A stretch of 64,000 nt of DNA from SAR86 cluster bacterium (GCA_023703555.1 CP097968.1:765168-829167), one strand, 5' to 3'; positions 33,001 to 39,000 are shown, counted from the stretch's first letter. A program made the numbers.

Positions 33001-36000
33001 GGTCTTGAGGAAGCGTATTATTAATAATCTCCTCTTTTATGAGTTCTCGTAATTGTACTAATGATAAAGCTGGATCATGCTGACTAGAAAAAACTACAGA
33101 ATCTATTCTTTGTGGTTGGTAGTCATCGCTGTATTCAACAGAGACTTGGGATTTTGCATCTGGCCTTAACCCATAGCTCTTATCTTTTAGTAACGCCTCA
33201 TGTTTTAAAGTTAGCCTATGTGCCCAGGCAATGGGCAGTGGCATCAGTTCCGGCGTCTCACGACAAGCATATCCAAACATAATACCTTGATCTCCAGATC
33301 CTAGTTGCTCGCCATGTGTAATGCCTTGACTTATATCCTGGCTTTGGTCAGAAATATAATTAGTAAACGCAAAAGTGTCATAACTAAAACCAAGCTCTTG
33401 ATTATCGTAACCAATCTCTTTAACAACATTACGCGCAATCTGTTCGTAATCAATATTAGCTGTGGTGGTAACCTCGCCTCCTAGGATGACATTGTTGTTT
33501 TTGACCATAGTCTCGCATGCAACTCTAGAATTTTTATCTTGCATAAGGCAAGCATCCAAGACAGCATCGGAAATCTGATCGCATATTTTGTCAGGATGGC
33601 CAGCTGAAACTGATTCAGAAGTAAAGATATAAGACATTACAAACCCTCAATAGAAACACCATCCAATGCCATGGAGTTGCTAATGAGCTTGTCCATGATT
33701 TCATCGATCTCTTCATCGGTTAAGCTTTTGTCTGCAGCTTGAAACTTAAACCTAAAACCAAGTTTTAAGAGGTTTAATTTTTTGTTTTGAAAAAAATCAA
33801 AAATAAAACTTTCGGTTATGAGACCATTGTCATTTGTAATGTCGTTAACCAGCTTTGTTAATGTTCCAACTTTTTCCAAATCACTTAAACTAAAGGATAA
33901 ATCACGGTAGGAAGCAGGAAAATCTGATGTTGGGGTCAATTGATTATCTGGCACTGCTAGATTGTCAGTGGTGAATTCACATGCGAACACTGGTGTTTTG
34001 ACTTTAGATTCAATGGTCTCTTTGCTAATCTTGCCCAAACCACCAATTTCAATACCATTTAAAGTCAAAGATTCGTAAAAATCGTAACCCCTCTTATTGG
34101 TAAGCTCATAAGTTGGTTGCACTTTCAAAATATCATTGCAAATACTATTCACAAGGCCTTTAAGGTAGGCGTAATCCAATTGAGCATTAAATTCTGCAGC
34201 ATTTTTATTGACGCGGCCTGAAATGGCTAAAGCAAAACGTCGCTCTGTGCCAGAGGTTTTGTAAATATCTGAGAACTCAAAAAACTTAATGGAATCTTTC
34301 TGTCGATTCTGGTTATAGGCAATATTGGTTCTGATCGAATTCATTAAGCAGGTGCGCAATATGGCACGTTGTTTGTCCAGGGGGTTATCAACAGCGATAG
34401 CTTCTTTGCCCTCAAAATCAGTGAAAGGATTGTTGATGACTTCAAAGCAGCCCTGATTGATTAAATAATCTCCAACCAGTTCTTCAAAAGATCTATTTTG
34501 TTTTTTTACCATGACAGGCAATGCCAAAACTTGAGACGGGATATTATTATAACCAATCATTCTAGTAACTTCTTCTGCCAAATCATTAAGCTGATCCACA
34601 TCGGATCTGTGGGCTGGCACAGTCATGTTCTTGCCAGCTTGAAAGCCCAAAGCACTCAAATAGCTAAGTTGCTCTTGCTGGCTAATATCGATCCCAGCCA
34701 CTGCATTAAGTTGGCTGGCATCGTATGGCACTTCCGCCAATGTGGTTTTATTTTGTTCGCTATAAAGAGCAACCGACTTAACTTCAGTGTGCTCGGAAAC
34801 AATCTGTAAAAATCTACGCAAAACATCTTCTTGGCAGAGATAATCCACGCCGCGCTCAAACTTATAGGCTGCCTCCGAGCTAAGGTTGTATTTTCTTGCT
34901 TTGCCTAAAATTTCTTGTGGTTTGAAGTAGGCGCACTCTACCAGTACCTTAGTTGTATCTGCTGAACAGGCTGTGCTGGCCCCACCCATGATACCCGCCA
35001 AACTGATCACTTGATCGTCCAATGAAAAAACCAAATTCTCATCGGTCAATTCGATCTCAGTATCTAATAGGGTCTTGAACTTTGTATTAAGCTTTTTCTT
35101 GGCCAAACTGAAATGCCCCTGCATAGTGTTATGATCAAAGCAGTGCGTGGGTTGTCCTGATTCGTAAGCTAAGTAGTTGGAGATGTCGGTGAAAAAATTG
35201 TTTTTGTTGATGCCTAGATCTGCACAATAAGCTTCTAAGTAAGGTTCATACTTTGTGGGTGCTTGCTCGATTTCAATCTGCAGAAAAGAAATATTTGGGC
35301 ATATATCTTGAGCTTTATTGTCAAACTGGAGTTCAAGTGCTGGCAAAGTCATATCACTTTTTGGCAGCTCTTTGGCATGATAGAAGTAATTGAGATCACG
35401 CGCTAGGCCTTTAAGTGAAAGGCAGTCCCCGCGATTGGGGGTGATTTCCATATCGAGGACTTCCCCATCGATTTCATGCTCATGCCCTAATTGAAACAAT
35501 AAATCTGATAACTCCTCTAGCTTGGGTTGTTGCTCTAAGAGGTTAAGTAAATGTGAATAAACGATCTTCATTTAAATTGCCTTAAGAAATCGAGGTTTGA
35601 TTTGTAAAAATCTCTTATATCTTTCACTTCGTACTTGAGCATAGCAATTCTTTCGATGCCCAAACCAAATGCCAAGCCAGAATACTTTTGTGGGTCAATG
35701 CCGCAGTTATCTAAAACTTTTGGATTAACTACCCCACATCCTAGAATTTCTAACCATTTATCACCAAACAAGACATCAACCTCTGCGGATGGCTCAGTAA
35801 ATGGAAAATAAGATGGTCGAAAACGCAGTTGTGCCTCTTCACCAAACAATGAGTGACATATCTTATAGATTAAGTCTTTAAGATGGGCAAAATTGACATT
35901 CTCATCGACATACAATCCTTCAATTTGATGAAACATTGGTAAATGAGTAGCATCATCGTCTTTGCGATAGACTTTACCTGGGGAAACTACCGCTATAGGA

Positions 36001-39000
36001 GGTTTGCTAGCTAGCATAGTTCTAACTTGGACTGGTGAAGTATGCGTACGCAAAACTTTTTTCATGCCATCGACATAAAAAGTATCATGCATTTCCCGAG
36101 CAGGGTGGGTTGCGGGGATATTGAGCATATCAAAGTTAAATTCTTCACTCTCAATTTCGGGCCCTTCGGCCACTTCAAAGCCAAAGGACGTCAGTAATTT
36201 AATAAGATCAAACTTTACTTGATTAATAGGATGAATTGCCCCAATTTCTTTGTCTAGGCTTGGCAGGAATATCTCTTTTGGTTTTGACATTAATCTATAG
36301 CAGTTTTGACAACTTTTTCAAAAGTTGCTTTATCCTGTATAGCTAACTCTGACAGCATTTTTCTGTCAAGTTCTATATTTTTTTTATTGAGACCAGCAAT
36401 AAATTTTGAGTAAGTAAATCCTAGCTCTCTAACTCCAGCATTTATACGAGTTATCCACAGTCTTCTGAAATCTCTTTTTCTATTTTTTCGATCTCTATAA
36501 GCATATTGCATCGACTTAATTAAGGACTGTTTTGCAGTCTTAAAGAGCCTTGACCTCGCGCCATAGTGACCCTTAGTTCTTGCAAGAACTGCTCTATGTT
36601 TTTTTGCTGCAAGATTTCCTTTAGTAGTCCTTGGCATATTAGGCCTCCAAAAGTTTATTAACAACTTTCAAGTTTGCTCCTTCAAGATTACTTGTGCCCC
36701 TTGCATGTCTTTTTCGCTTAGTTGTATGTTTAGAAAGAATATGATTTCTTCCAGCAGATCTCATTTTCAGACCTGAACCTGTAGGTTTAAATCTTTTTTT
36801 TGCACTTGAATGATTCTTTAATTTACTCATTTTTCTTTTCGTGGTGTTAACAGTGTACTGTAAGTTCTGTTTTCAAACTTTGGCTCCACTAACACGGATG
36901 CCATATCTTCCGTTTCTTTGATGATACTGTCAAGTAAAGTTTTTCCAAATGAAGTATTACCGAGTTCCCTTCCTCTAAAAGTTACTGAAACTTTTACATT
37001 TGCTTTTTTATCAATAAATTCCAAGATCTTCTTAAGCTTCACATCTATGTCGCCTCTTCCAATATTTGGTCTCATCTTAATCTCTTTCAGATCTATTTTT
37101 CTTTGATTCCTTTTCGATTGTGCTTTCTTCTTTTTTTGTTCAAATTTAAATTTTCCATAGTCAATAATCTTTGCGACAAAAGGCTCTTTATCAAAAGTTA
37201 TTTGTAAAATATCCAAGCCCCGTTCTTTTGCAAGCTCAATCGCATCGCGCTTAATGAAATTTCCTAGTTTTTCTCCTGTTTCAGAAATTACAGTCAGCTT
37301 ATCACCCTTCATGAATTCATTAATGGGTGCTTGTGGCGGTCTTCTTCTTTGAGGTCTCAATGTTTAAAAATTAAAAAGAAAGTTGAATGATAATGCATCA
37401 GGCGGCATCAAGAAATGTCGAAAAATTTTTCATAGGAAGTGAATGATATATAAAAATACGATTTTATCAAGATTTTACATCCCAAAGCGTGGAAGGGTTT
37501 TTCATAGATTTAAACTCAATGACATAATTAAACGGATCGCAAACAAACATCGTCTCTTGTTCTGGAGGTCGTCCTTTGAATCTAACAAATGGTTCAAGCA
37601 GTATATTTGCATCATCATAATTTGCTAATCTAGTCTTAATGTCATCAAAAGTCTTGCGGTCAAGATGAATGCCAAAATGTGGTACTGGGATGTCACACAT
37701 ATCAACTATTTTTGATGTACTCAATTCATTTTTTTGGAAATTTGGATCTTCGTGCAATGTTAGCTCATTACCAAAAAAATTTATATCTTGCCAGTCATCT
37801 TCTGACCTTCCAGCGTTACAGCCCAATAGATCGCAGTAAAAACTCTTGCCCTCACTTAACGAGGATACCTTCATTGCAAGATGAAACATTGATTGCATAC
37901 TTAAGTATAAATTTCTTTAACAGAGGTTTGTAATTTTTTTGCTAAATCTTTTCTTATCCCAAGCTCTTGTGAAATATTATCAACTTCTAATTTTCCTATA
38001 TTTTCTATTGAGCCAATTTTTTTGTAAATTTTATTTATGGTTTTAGGGCCAATGCCTTTAATATCCTGCAAAAAGTGGGTTGTAAGTTTCTTTCTATTTA
38101 TGCTTCTAAAATTTTTGATAGCAAATCTATGCGCTTCATCTCTTACATCAAGGAATATCTTTGATGCATCAAACTCTCTTCTAAATTCAACCTTCTTATC
38201 ATCTACAAACAAATTTTCAATGCCATATTTTCTTTTTTCTCCCTTACCAAGTGAACTGAAAATAATTTTTGGAGCCTTGATTCGAGTCTTAATAAAGTTT
38301 AGGTGCGTTTGACCACCGTCAATCAGTACAATATTTAGGGGGAAATTGTTTTTTAGATATCTTTTAATGCCGAAAATCAAGGCGTTTAAGTCGGAGTTGG
38401 AGTGCTTAACCGGAACTCGATAAAATCTGTACTTAGACTTATCTGGTCCGTTTTGGTCAAAATAAATACAAGAAACTGTTTTTATATCACCTGCACCACC
38501 GCTTACATCAAAACCTGCAATTCTAAGATCAGACGGTATTATGCTAATGTTCTTTTCAATAAAATCTAATGATCTTGCATATTTCTGATTTTTTTGAAGC
38601 TTCAAACTAAGAAAGTTTTTTGCGTTTCTTTCAGCCATTTCTAGCCACTTTTTTTTCTTGCCTGAAACTTTATTTAAAAAGTTAATTTTTGGAAAGAAAG
38701 GGTTGTCTAAGATTTCTTGTGAACTAATGATTTCTTTTATTTGCGGATTTGCCAGCACAAGTCTGCTTACAAATTCTTCAGTTATTTCTTCCTTAGTTTT
38801 CTTTAAAGGGTTTCTGTAAGTGTATTTTTTAATATTGGAGAAGGCATTATTTTCAATAATGCTTACTACAAAACATACTATTTCCTCAGCGTAAGCAACA
38901 CCTAAAACATTTATTTGGTCGCCACCTGCAAATATTACTTGGGTTTCTTCAACTTTTCTTAGCATTTCTATTTTTTTTCTTAATGCTAAGGCTTTCTCAA

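What the first reader, a model, noticed from the sequence alone, without database searches (positions are those of the whole stretch)
33637..36290. Domain-minimal bacterial PheRS: both tRNA-contacting appendages missing, in a locally GC-richer block
Seen in sequence: PheS is 240 aa and begins about 15 residues before the conserved HPxxxV motif, so the N-terminal coiled-coil of about 85 aa is missing. PheT is 644 aa. It passes from ...LGHEHEIDG directly to ...ITPNRGDCLS, so the OB-fold tRNA-binding (B2) domain is missing. Neither gene has room for the missing part upstream, because rplT/pheS overlap by 1 nt and pheS/pheT by 4 nt. No pheM-type leader is possible. Established: E. coli PheS and PheT are 327 and 795 aa, and both missing modules contact tRNA-Phe. 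The 60-nt lines I hand-counted in pheT, pheS and metK gave ~37-55% GC, against ~30-40% in sampled uvrC, gyrA, ahcY and cysD lines. Inference: this is either extreme streamlining or a horizontally acquired minimal PheRS.
Basis: partly seen in the sequence, partly recalled or inferred. Interest (0 to 1): 0.55.

Follow-up and report, generated by a model that had tools for sequence, protein, structure and literature searches.

The report
Stripped-down PheRS in SAR86 bacteria
The marine SAR86 bacteria make their phenylalanine-tRNA-charging enzyme without two outer modules that textbook bacteria carry; this loss is real and old in the lineage and also occurs in the tiny CPR bacteria, while the slightly GC-richer DNA here marks a separate swap of this gene segment between SAR86 species.

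Summary
pheS (35568-36290, minus strand) encodes 240 aa. It holds only the class II catalytic core and starts at E. coli residue ~93. pheT (33637-35571, minus strand) encodes 644 aa. It keeps B1, B3/4 (editing), B5, B6/7 and B8 (anticodon binding), and the B2 OB-fold is cleanly absent. In-frame stops 10 and 1 codons upstream, and the TAATG and ATGA overlaps, leave no room for the missing parts.

The organism is a SAR86 gammaproteobacterium. All 13 SAR86 species loci recovered share the same short genes and the same gene order, although their PheT proteins are only 53-92% identical. The loss is therefore ancestral to SAR86 and is not an artefact or a recent acquisition. CPR/Patescibacteria have the same architecture (245 + 641 aa) but are less similar to SAR86 than E. 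coli is, which points to convergence.

The B2 domain is already known to be dispensable and to be absent in CPR. The missing alpha coiled coil, which binds the tRNA D-loop and T-loop, is the more notable loss.

The GC-rich block is also real: pheT GC3 is 0.41 against 0.26 ± 0.04 for the window. It coincides with a mosaic segment (~36040 to ~33450) that is 80-94% identical among SAR86 species whose flanks are 55-79% identical. That pattern indicates recombination within SAR86.

No tRNA-Phe gene could be obtained, so the proposed tRNA recognition mechanism is inferred.

The parts
36827..37360 (-). infC (IF-3), first gene of the conserved infC-rpmI-rplT-pheS-pheT string
   Evidence: ORF. The same gene order is seen in all SAR86 loci and in E. 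coli. Pfam IF3 domains are recorded for the L019 orthologue.
36639..36830 (-). rpmI (L35)
   Evidence: ORF. Ribosomal_L35p is recorded for the L019 orthologue.
36290..36637 (-). rplT (L20). Its TAA stop shares one base with the pheS ATG.
   Evidence: Pfam Ribosomal_L20, E 7.6e-42. Junction sequence.
35568..36290 (-). pheS, 240 aa: class II catalytic core only. The N-terminal coiled coil (about 90 aa in E. coli) is absent.
   Evidence: PF01409 over residues 9-239, with no PF02912. TIGR00468 scores 319 bits against a cutoff of 237. Aligns to E. coli PheS 93-327 (alignment A2). An in-frame stop lies 10 codons upstream.
33637..35571 (-). pheT, 644 aa: beta subunit lacking the B2 OB-fold domain.
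   Evidence: Domain hits. Alignments to solved PheRS beta chains. Foldseek top hits are bacterial PheRS beta chains.
35362..35571 (-). B1 remnant (PheT residues about 1-70). The B2 deletion junction lies near residues 33-36 (nt about 35464-35475), where ...LGHEHE-IDGEVLDMEITPNRGDCLS joins E. coli position ~33 to ~150.
   Evidence: Weak PF18262 match over residues 6-63. BLASTP with the CPR PheT aligns residues 1-52 across the same junction. phmmer alignments begin at E. coli residue 152. The AlphaFold model is of low confidence here, with pLDDT below 50 for residues 1-67.
34789..35217 (-). B3/4 editing domain (PheT residues 119-261). Editing-site residues are conserved: H143, E212 and A234 correspond to E. 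coli H265, E334 and A356.
   Evidence: PF03483, E 5e-39. These columns are invariant in alignment A1. Residue mapping.
34549..34725 (-). B5 domain (residues 283-341)
   Evidence: PF03484, E 1.4e-14.
33973..34542 (-). B6/B7 catalytic-like module (residues 344-533)
   Evidence: PF17759, E 7.3e-22.
33676..33927 (-). B8 ferredoxin-fold anticodon-binding domain (residues 549-632), retained
   Evidence: PF03147, E 2.9e-13.
33450..36040 (.). GC-richer mosaic segment (3' two-thirds of pheS, all of pheT, 5' end of metK) shared at 80-94% nucleotide identity with SAR86 species L001-L004. Against L004 the tract runs on to about 31450.
   Evidence: Sliding nucleotide identity and refined breakpoints. Protein identity matrices. 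GC3 values.
32513..33637 (-). metK. Its ATG shares one base with the pheT stop, and its 5' end lies inside the mosaic segment.
   Evidence: Pfam S-AdoMet synthetase N, M and C domains. Junction sequence.

Best explanation
This is the ordinary housekeeping bacterial-type (alpha-beta)2 phenylalanyl-tRNA synthetase of a SAR86 gammaproteobacterium. Two peripheral modules were deleted in the SAR86 ancestor as part of protein and genome streamlining.

What is shown:
- The alpha subunit has lost the N-terminal coiled coil. In full-length enzymes this domain clamps the D-loop/T-loop corner of tRNA-Phe.
- The beta subunit has lost the B2 OB-fold.
- The alpha catalytic core, the B3/4 editing site, B5, B6/7 and the B8 anticodon-binding domain are all kept.

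What is inferred:
- tRNA-Phe is selected mainly by B8 reading the GAA anticodon, with B6/7 backbone contacts and the CCA end entering the alpha active site. Human mitochondrial PheRS lacks both modules and is active, so this mode is known to work.
- Tyr-tRNA-Phe editing is retained.
- Expression is probably coupled translationally to rplT instead of being controlled by a pheM attenuator.

Separately, the locally GC-richer stretch is a recombination tract (3' pheS, pheT, 5' metK). It has been exchanged among SAR86 species and has nothing to do with the domain loss.
For: - Architecture.
- Lineage-wide and syntenic: 13 SAR86 species loci have PheS of 239-241 aa and PheT of 644-646 aa, with PheT identity 53-92%. 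All of the top 120 PheS and top 120 PheT database relatives are short and lack PF02912 and PF01588.
- Vertical gammaproteobacterial origin is favoured. The best solved-structure hits for both subunits are A. baumannii and E. coli. The gene order matches E. coli infC-rpmI-rplT-(pheM)-pheS-pheT.
- The nearest non-SAR86 PheS clusters (53-58% identity) are full length.
- Function is retained: motif and core scores are above the curated cutoff for PheS, editing residues are invariant, and B8 is present.
- Precedents for viability. B2 is dispensable in E. coli and missing in many CPR PheRS-beta (PMC5370408). CPR contig L016 carries a 245-aa PheS and a 641-aa PheT with the same domain list. Mitochondrial PheRS, made of the catalytic module plus B8, is fully active (PMC8464048).
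- Another sign of streamlining in the window: ribosomal protein S1 is 437 aa and covers only positions 4-433 of a 560-position model.
- Recombination tract. PheT is 84-92% identical among the window, L001, L002, L003 and L004, while UvrC is 47-63% identical among the lineages they represent. L003 and L004 are sisters in the flanks (UvrC 91%, InfC 96%), yet L003 PheT is closer to the window (92%) than to L004 (88%). The identity steps are sharp, at ~36040 and ~33450/31450. GC3 is elevated only in genomes that carry this allele.
Against: - No biochemical data exist for this enzyme.
- No SAR86 tRNA-Phe was obtained, so the anticodon-dominated recognition mode is inference only.
- From memory, not verified here: T. 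thermophilus deletion work (Lechler & Kreutzer 1997) reported that removing the alpha coiled coil abolishes aminoacylation. That makes an unaided coiled-coil-less heterotetramer less obvious.
- A trans-acting tRNA-binding protein encoded elsewhere in the genome is not excluded.
- PheT scores just under NCBI's equivalog cutoff (393.4 against 402.65).
- Only solved structures and unnamed cluster representatives were available outside SAR86. An ancient transfer into the SAR86 ancestor is therefore disfavoured but not excluded.
- The donor of the GC-rich allele was not found.
Confidence: 0.75

Rival explanations
1. The minimal pheST operon was acquired horizontally by the SAR86 ancestor from a lineage that already had it, such as CPR/Patescibacteria, and replaced a full-length gammaproteobacterial PheRS.
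For: CPR carries the same 245 + 641 aa architecture with the same clean B2 excision point and the same 4-nt overlap. aaRS genes are known to be prone to transfer (general knowledge).
Against: SAR86 PheS is 54% identical to E. coli but 47% to the CPR PheS. SAR86 PheT scores 187 bits against E. coli, even without B2, and 125 bits against the CPR PheT. The best solved-structure hits are gammaproteobacterial. The infC-rpmI-rplT-pheS-pheT gene order is the proteobacterial one, whereas the CPR operon sits in a different context.
Confidence: 0.08
2. The missing functions are supplied in trans. A separate small tRNA-binding protein (Trbp111/CsaA-like OB-fold or a coiled-coil protein) encoded elsewhere docks on the trimmed enzyme, so the holoenzyme is not really minimal.
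For: Stand-alone B2-like OB-fold tRNA-binding proteins exist in bacteria (general knowledge). From memory, coiled-coil deletion was reported to abolish charging in T. thermophilus.
Against: Nothing resembling the E. coli PheS N-terminus or PheT B2 is encoded in the 64-kb window. The best tblastn E-values are 4.8 and 0.026, and the two best B2-domain hits (E 0.026 and 0.17) fall in a methyltransferase and a YjbH protein. Mitochondrial PheRS and the engineered B2-less E. coli enzyme work without such help. The rest of the genome could not be searched.
Confidence: 0.1
3. The GC-rich block does not come from a GC-richer donor. It is a by-product of frequent homologous recombination at this locus (GC-biased gene conversion), or of selection on pheT codon usage.
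For: In all six genomes that carry the shared allele, pheT GC3 (0.33-0.41) exceeds its own flanks (0.25-0.30). No lineage was found in which this GC3 equals the background.
Against: This cannot be separated from an unsampled donor with the data in hand. The 70% allele (L018) and the 53-58% alleles show no elevation. Selection on codon usage would not explain the sharp identity breakpoints.
Confidence: 0.3
4. Artefact: truncated gene calls or assembly errors make full-length genes look short.
For: One relative (L003, and P0315 at 570 aa) has a broken pheT in a long-read polished assembly. Several 'short' PheS cluster representatives outside SAR86 turned out to be partial calls.
Against: The same lengths and junctions occur in single-cell genomes, metagenome-assembled genomes and hundreds of independent metagenome contigs. 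Upstream in-frame stops and overlapping stop/start codons leave no room for longer genes.
Confidence: 0.01

Closest known systems
Canonical bacterial (alpha-beta)2 PheRS (E. coli 3PCO, A. baumannii 6P8T, T. thermophilus 1PYS/2IY5)
   Same: Two adjacent genes, pheS then pheT. The class II core is about 54% identical to E. coli PheS. B1, B3/4, B5, B6/7 and B8 are all present, the editing residues H265/E334/A356 are conserved, and the operon follows infC-rpmI-rplT.
   Different: It lacks alpha residues ~1-92 (the coiled coil) and beta residues ~39-150 (B2). There is no pheM leader, and pheS overlaps rplT by one base.
CPR/Patescibacteria PheRS (for example contig L016, PheS 245 aa + PheT 641 aa; relatives named Paceibacterota, Kaiserbacteria, Campbellbacteria)
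   Same: Identical domain list (PF01409 alone; B3_4, B5, CLM, FDX-ACB). B2 is excised at the same point within B1, and the genes share the ATGA overlap. Loss of B2 in CPR PheRS-beta is noted in PMC5370408.
   Different: Only 47% (PheS) and 25% (PheT) identical to SAR86, which is less similar than E. coli is. The genomic context differs, and the host is a reduced, probably symbiotic bacterium, whereas SAR86 is a free-living planktonic gammaproteobacterium. The likely relationship is convergence.
Engineered B2-deleted E. coli PheRS (Roy & Ibba 2006, Biochemistry 45:9156; known here only from its title as cited in PMC5370408)
   Same: A beta subunit without B2. It shows that B2 is dispensable for aminoacylation.
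   Different: It is a laboratory construct that keeps the alpha coiled coil. That work reports a contribution of B2 to editing, so SAR86 editing efficiency may be lower. This was not tested here.
Human mitochondrial PheRS (3CMQ/3TUP)
   Same: It works without the coiled coil and without B2, using the catalytic module plus a B8-type anticodon-binding domain (PMC8464048; PMC8136816).
   Different: It is a single-chain monomer without B1, B3/4 editing, B5 or B6/7. The SAR86 enzyme keeps two subunits and the editing domain. The TIGR00469 score of 137 is below its cutoff of 258.

Membership tests
Bacterial-type PheRS alpha subunit (PheS, TIGR00468 / PF01409) | Class II catalytic core (motifs 1-3) scoring above the curated family cutoff | tested here: met
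   PF01409, E 2.9e-98. TIGR00468 scores 319.3 bits against a cutoff of 237.45.
Bacterial-type PheRS alpha subunit (PheS, TIGR00468 / PF01409) | N-terminal coiled-coil tRNA-binding domain (PF02912, about residues 1-88) | tested here: not met
   No PF02912 hit. The alignment starts at E. coli residue 93, and an in-frame stop lies 10 codons upstream.
Bacterial-type PheRS beta subunit (PheT, TIGR00472) | B3/4 editing, B5, B6/7 catalytic-like and B8 anticodon-binding domains in order | tested here: met
   PF03483, PF03484, PF17759 and PF03147 are all significant and collinear. Foldseek top hits are bacterial PheRS beta chains at probability 1.0.
Bacterial-type PheRS beta subunit (PheT, TIGR00472) | B2 OB-fold tRNA_bind domain (PF01588) inserted in B1 | tested here: not met
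   No PF01588 hit. Query residue 33 aligns to residue 152 of the E. coli and A. baumannii beta chains.
Bacterial-type PheRS beta subunit (PheT, TIGR00472) | Whole-protein score above NCBIfam's equivalog cutoff | tested here: inconclusive
   393.4 bits against a cutoff of 402.65. The match covers model positions 154-788, so the shortfall is the missing B2 region.
Bacterial-type PheRS (holoenzyme) | Adjacent, co-oriented pheS-pheT genes downstream of rplT | tested here: met
Bacterial-type PheRS (holoenzyme) | (alpha-beta)2 assembly and Phe-tRNA-Phe synthesis and editing activity | not testable with these tools
   This needs biochemistry. Here, only conservation of the editing residues and of the catalytic core was shown.
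Mitochondrial-type monomeric PheRS (TIGR00469) | Single chain fusing the catalytic module to a B8-like domain | tested here: not met
   There are two separate genes. TIGR00469 scores 137 bits (PheS) and 22 bits (PheT) against a cutoff of 258.
Archaeal/eukaryotic-type PheRS (NF003210, TIGR00471) | Scores above the family cutoffs, and a beta subunit without B8 | tested here: not met
   212.8 against 350, and 73.1 against 282.65. B8 is present.

The most novel reading that the evidence does not exclude
SAR86, and independently CPR, may run a heterotetrameric PheRS that has given up reading the tRNA elbow (G19/U20, C56/G57). It would recognise tRNA-Phe essentially by anticodon alone, with relaxed or altered D-loop identity elements in SAR86 tRNA-Phe. 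[quoted passage not shown]
Probability: 0.2. Interest if true: 0.6.

Novelty: new variant of a known kind. Interest (0 to 1): 0.45.

Why it matters
PheRS is the largest and most elaborate bacterial aminoacyl-tRNA synthetase. Its alpha coiled coil is regarded as part of the tRNA-binding apparatus. SAR86 is one of the most abundant free-living bacterial groups in the surface ocean, and it has dispensed with that module and with B2 while keeping the editing and anticodon-binding domains. This gives a natural definition of the minimal working heterotetramer.

The same architecture arose independently in CPR bacteria, so these two modules look like the expendable ones. Testable questions follow about tRNA-Phe identity rules, the cost to editing, and how far streamlining trims individual translation proteins. 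Ribosomal protein S1 in the same window is also shortened.

The recombination tract shows that essential translation genes are exchanged between SAR86 species. This matters for species delineation and for using such genes as phylogenetic markers. None of this changes what is known about how PheRS works, and B2 loss was already documented.

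Tried and rejected
1. tRNA-Phe compensation test. There is no tRNA-Phe in the window or in the 15 SAR86, CPR and related loci scanned for tRNAs. One metagenome scan with a generic proteobacterial tRNA-Phe pattern returned 120 loci. None could be tied to SAR86 by similarity to the window or to the SAR86 loci. 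The pattern also required a canonical D-loop, so the scan could not have revealed an altered one.

2. Search for a GC-rich donor of the pheT allele. Contigs carrying the 70% and 85% alleles were fetched. The 70% allele has background GC3. The 85% allele is again GC-richer than its own flanks. No donor was identified.

3. Other short PheS forms. The short entries in the 50%-identity representative search are partial gene calls from clusters that contain 335-341 aa members, or they begin with a non-ATG partial start. The exceptions are SAR86 and the CPR form.

4. Structure prediction of PheT. Mean pLDDT was 70, but residues 1-67 scored below 50, so the model does not add independent proof that the B1 remnant folds. 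Foldseek only confirms the PheRS-beta family.

5. Stand-alone coiled-coil or B2 genes in the window. None were found.

6. Literature. Searches found nothing on SAR86 PheRS or on natural loss of the alpha coiled coil. The T. thermophilus domain-deletion paper I recall is not in the searchable library.

7. Taxonomic naming of the nearest full-length PheS clusters. Mostly unnamed; one is labelled Pseudomonadota or Puniceispirillum.

Full report
**1. What is in the sequence**

The minus strand between 37360 and 32513 carries infC, rpmI, rplT, pheS (35568-36290, 240 aa), pheT (33637-35571, 644 aa) and metK, packed without spacers. The junctions read TAATG (rplT/pheS), ATGA (pheS/pheT) and TAATG (pheT/metK). 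In-frame stop codons lie 10 codons upstream of the pheS start and 1 codon upstream of the pheT start. Neither gene can be longer, and there is no room for a pheM-type leader, which in E. coli occupies a ~280-nt spacer.

**2. Domain content**

- Pfam finds only the class II core (PF01409, E 2.9e-98) in PheS.
- In PheT it finds B3_4, B5, the catalytic-like module and the FDX-ACB anticodon-binding domain, plus a weak partial B1 match. There is no PF02912 coiled coil and no PF01588 tRNA_bind.
- PheS passes NCBI's equivalog cutoff. PheT falls just short (393 against 403 bits) because the match covers only model positions 154-788.
- Against solved structures, PheS residues 6-240 align with E. coli PheS 93-327.
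- PheT residue 33 onward aligns with residue 152 onward of the E. coli and A. baumannii beta chains.
- PheT residues 1-33 match the first B1 helices. B2 is an insertion within B1, and it has been excised cleanly.
- The E. coli editing-site residues H265, E334 and A356 correspond to invariant H143, E212 and A234.
- An AlphaFold model (pLDDT 70) hits bacterial PheRS beta chains with probability 1.0. It is unreliable for residues 1-67, so it adds nothing on B1.

**3. Whose genome, and how old is the loss?**

A scan of one genome per species returned 13 loci, eight titled as SAR86 cluster bacteria and five as uncultured or unclassified Gammaproteobacteria. Their PheT proteins are 53-92% identical to the window's. 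Every complete locus has PheS of 239-241 aa, PheT of 644-646 aa and the gene order uvrC, glyoxalase-like gene, infC, rpmI, rplT, pheS, pheT. One exception is L003, where pheT is broken in a polished long-read assembly.

The best 120 database relatives of PheS are all 239-255 aa, nearly all 239-243 aa. The full-length PheT relatives are 641-646 aa, and none carries the missing Pfam domains.

In a search of 1.8 billion cluster representatives, the nearest non-SAR86 PheS sequences (53-58% identical) are full length, with the match starting near residue 90-105. The few short ones are partial gene calls, with one exception described in section 4.

The architecture is therefore ancestral to SAR86 and is not an artefact. 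The best solved-structure matches for both subunits are gammaproteobacterial, and the gene order matches E. coli. Both favour vertical descent followed by deletion.

**4. The same solution elsewhere**

The exception is a 245-aa PheS whose relatives are named Paceibacterota, Kaiserbacteria, Campbellbacteria and Minisyncoccia. All are about 230-250 aa. On its contig it is followed, with a 4-nt overlap, by a 641-aa PheT with exactly the SAR86 domain list.

Mukai et al. [quoted passage not shown] SAR86 proteins are less similar to the CPR pair than to E. coli. PheS is 47% identical to the CPR form and 54% to E. coli. PheT scores 125 bits against the CPR form and 187 bits against E. coli. The two lineages most likely arrived at the same minimal enzyme independently.

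**5. What the missing parts do**

In the M. tuberculosis PheRS-tRNA structures, the N-terminal helical alpha domain binds the D-loop (G19, U20), the T-loop (C56, G57) and G45. The C-terminal beta domain reads the anticodon, and the B2 equivalent sits on the periphery. In T. thermophilus the coiled coil (residues 1-88) is ordered only when tRNA is bound.

Human mitochondrial PheRS consists of the catalytic module plus a B8-type domain and is fully active. This shows that recognition dominated by the anticodon is viable. I infer the same mode for SAR86, with editing retained.

From memory, and not verifiable in the library, deleting the coiled coil in the T. thermophilus enzyme abolished charging. 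That is why this loss is the more interesting one.

No SAR86 tRNA-Phe could be obtained. No stand-alone substitute domain is encoded in the window.

**6. The GC-richer block**

Per gene, GC is 0.386 (pheS), 0.398 (pheT) and 0.393 (metK), against 0.337 ± 0.033 for 57 ORFs. At third codon positions pheT is a +4 sd outlier (0.406 against 0.258 ± 0.036). pheS is mildly elevated (0.328) and metK hardly at all (0.288).

The elevation recurs in L001-L004, L011 and L019 (pheT GC3 0.33-0.40 against flanks of 0.25-0.30). It does not occur in L005-L013 or L018.

Protein identity matrices explain it:
- PheT is 84-92% identical among the window and L001-L004 (95% between the sister genomes L001 and L002).
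- UvrC is only 47-63% identical among the three lineages these genomes represent (the window, L001/L002 and L003/L004).
- In every other pair of lineages, PheT is less conserved than UvrC.
- L003 and L004 are sisters in the flanks (UvrC 91%, InfC 96%, L20 100%). Yet L003 PheT is closer to the window (92%) than to L004 (88%).
- MetK and the next gene (a cytidylyltransferase-cupin) are 92-93% identical between the window and L004 only.

Sliding nucleotide identity shows sharp steps:
- Window against L003 rises from about 64-72% to 94% at ~36040, inside pheS near codon 83.
- At the same point, similarity to L007 falls from 86-90% to about 73-74%.
- The tract ends at ~33450 for L001-L003 and at ~31450 for L004.

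This is a mosaic produced by homologous recombination among SAR86 species. SAR86 lineages with the unrelated (53-58%) alleles have the same domain architecture, so the exchange has nothing to do with the domain loss. Two explanations for the higher GC3 remain open: an unsampled GC-richer donor, or GC-biased gene conversion.

**7. Verdict**

Streamlining in the SAR86 ancestor explains the minimal enzyme. The 'horizontally acquired minimal PheRS' reading is not supported. The GC block does record horizontal exchange, but within SAR86.

The enzyme is a new natural variant of a known kind. B2 loss has precedent in the literature. Loss of the coiled coil in a bacterial heterotetramer is visible in databases for CPR, but I found no published description of it, and nothing on SAR86. 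Interest is moderate.

Noticed in passing
window 41648-42961 (-): Ribosomal protein S1 is only 437 aa. It matches positions 4-433 of a 560-position S1 model and scores below the curated cutoffs, so the C-terminal ~125 aa (the last S1 repeats) appear to be missing. The L019 orthologue is also 437 aa. This looks like another domain-level trimming of a translation protein.
   Followed up: partly
window 3562-4242 (+): This ORF has GC 0.49 but GC3 0.22. It encodes a low-complexity protein with a hydrophobic N-terminus, an acidic D/E-rich stretch, about 25 PTPE/PEPT repeats and then about 24 GT dipeptide repeats. No real Pfam match was found.
   Followed up: partly
window 24924-30365 (tRNA-Leu-UAA at 24924-25010, tRNA-Cys-GCA at 30292-30365): In L001 and L018 these two tRNA genes are about 40-50 nt apart. 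In L002, L007, L010 and L019 they are 1.8-2.8 kb apart. In the window they are separated by ~5.3 kb that includes cysD and cysNC. The interval looks like a variable insertion site among SAR86 genomes.
   Followed up: no
L003 6001-7931 (JAYQTH010000002.1) and protein P0315: pheT is interrupted in this polished long-read genome (570-aa ORF), and neighbouring genes are also broken. These are probably residual indel errors and not a pseudogene.
   Followed up: no
window 37901-39655 (uvrC) and 37467-37898 (glyoxalase-like gene), compared with L001-L013: UvrC splits the SAR86 loci into two deep groups, 47-49% identical between groups and 62-98% within. The adjacent glyoxalase-like gene splits them differently, placing L005, L006 and L013 in the other group. 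The flanks of the pheST locus therefore also have discordant histories.
   Followed up: partly
L032 (metagenome contig OLNE01000074.1), ~5322-8709: In an unrelated bacterium, a tRNA-Phe gene lies about 2 kb upstream of infC-rpmI-rplT.
   Followed up: no
window 33001-36000: GC skew is near zero (-0.08 to +0.005) in the recombinant block and -0.09 to -0.24 in the neighbouring minus-strand genes. This fits a different compositional history for the block.
   Followed up: no
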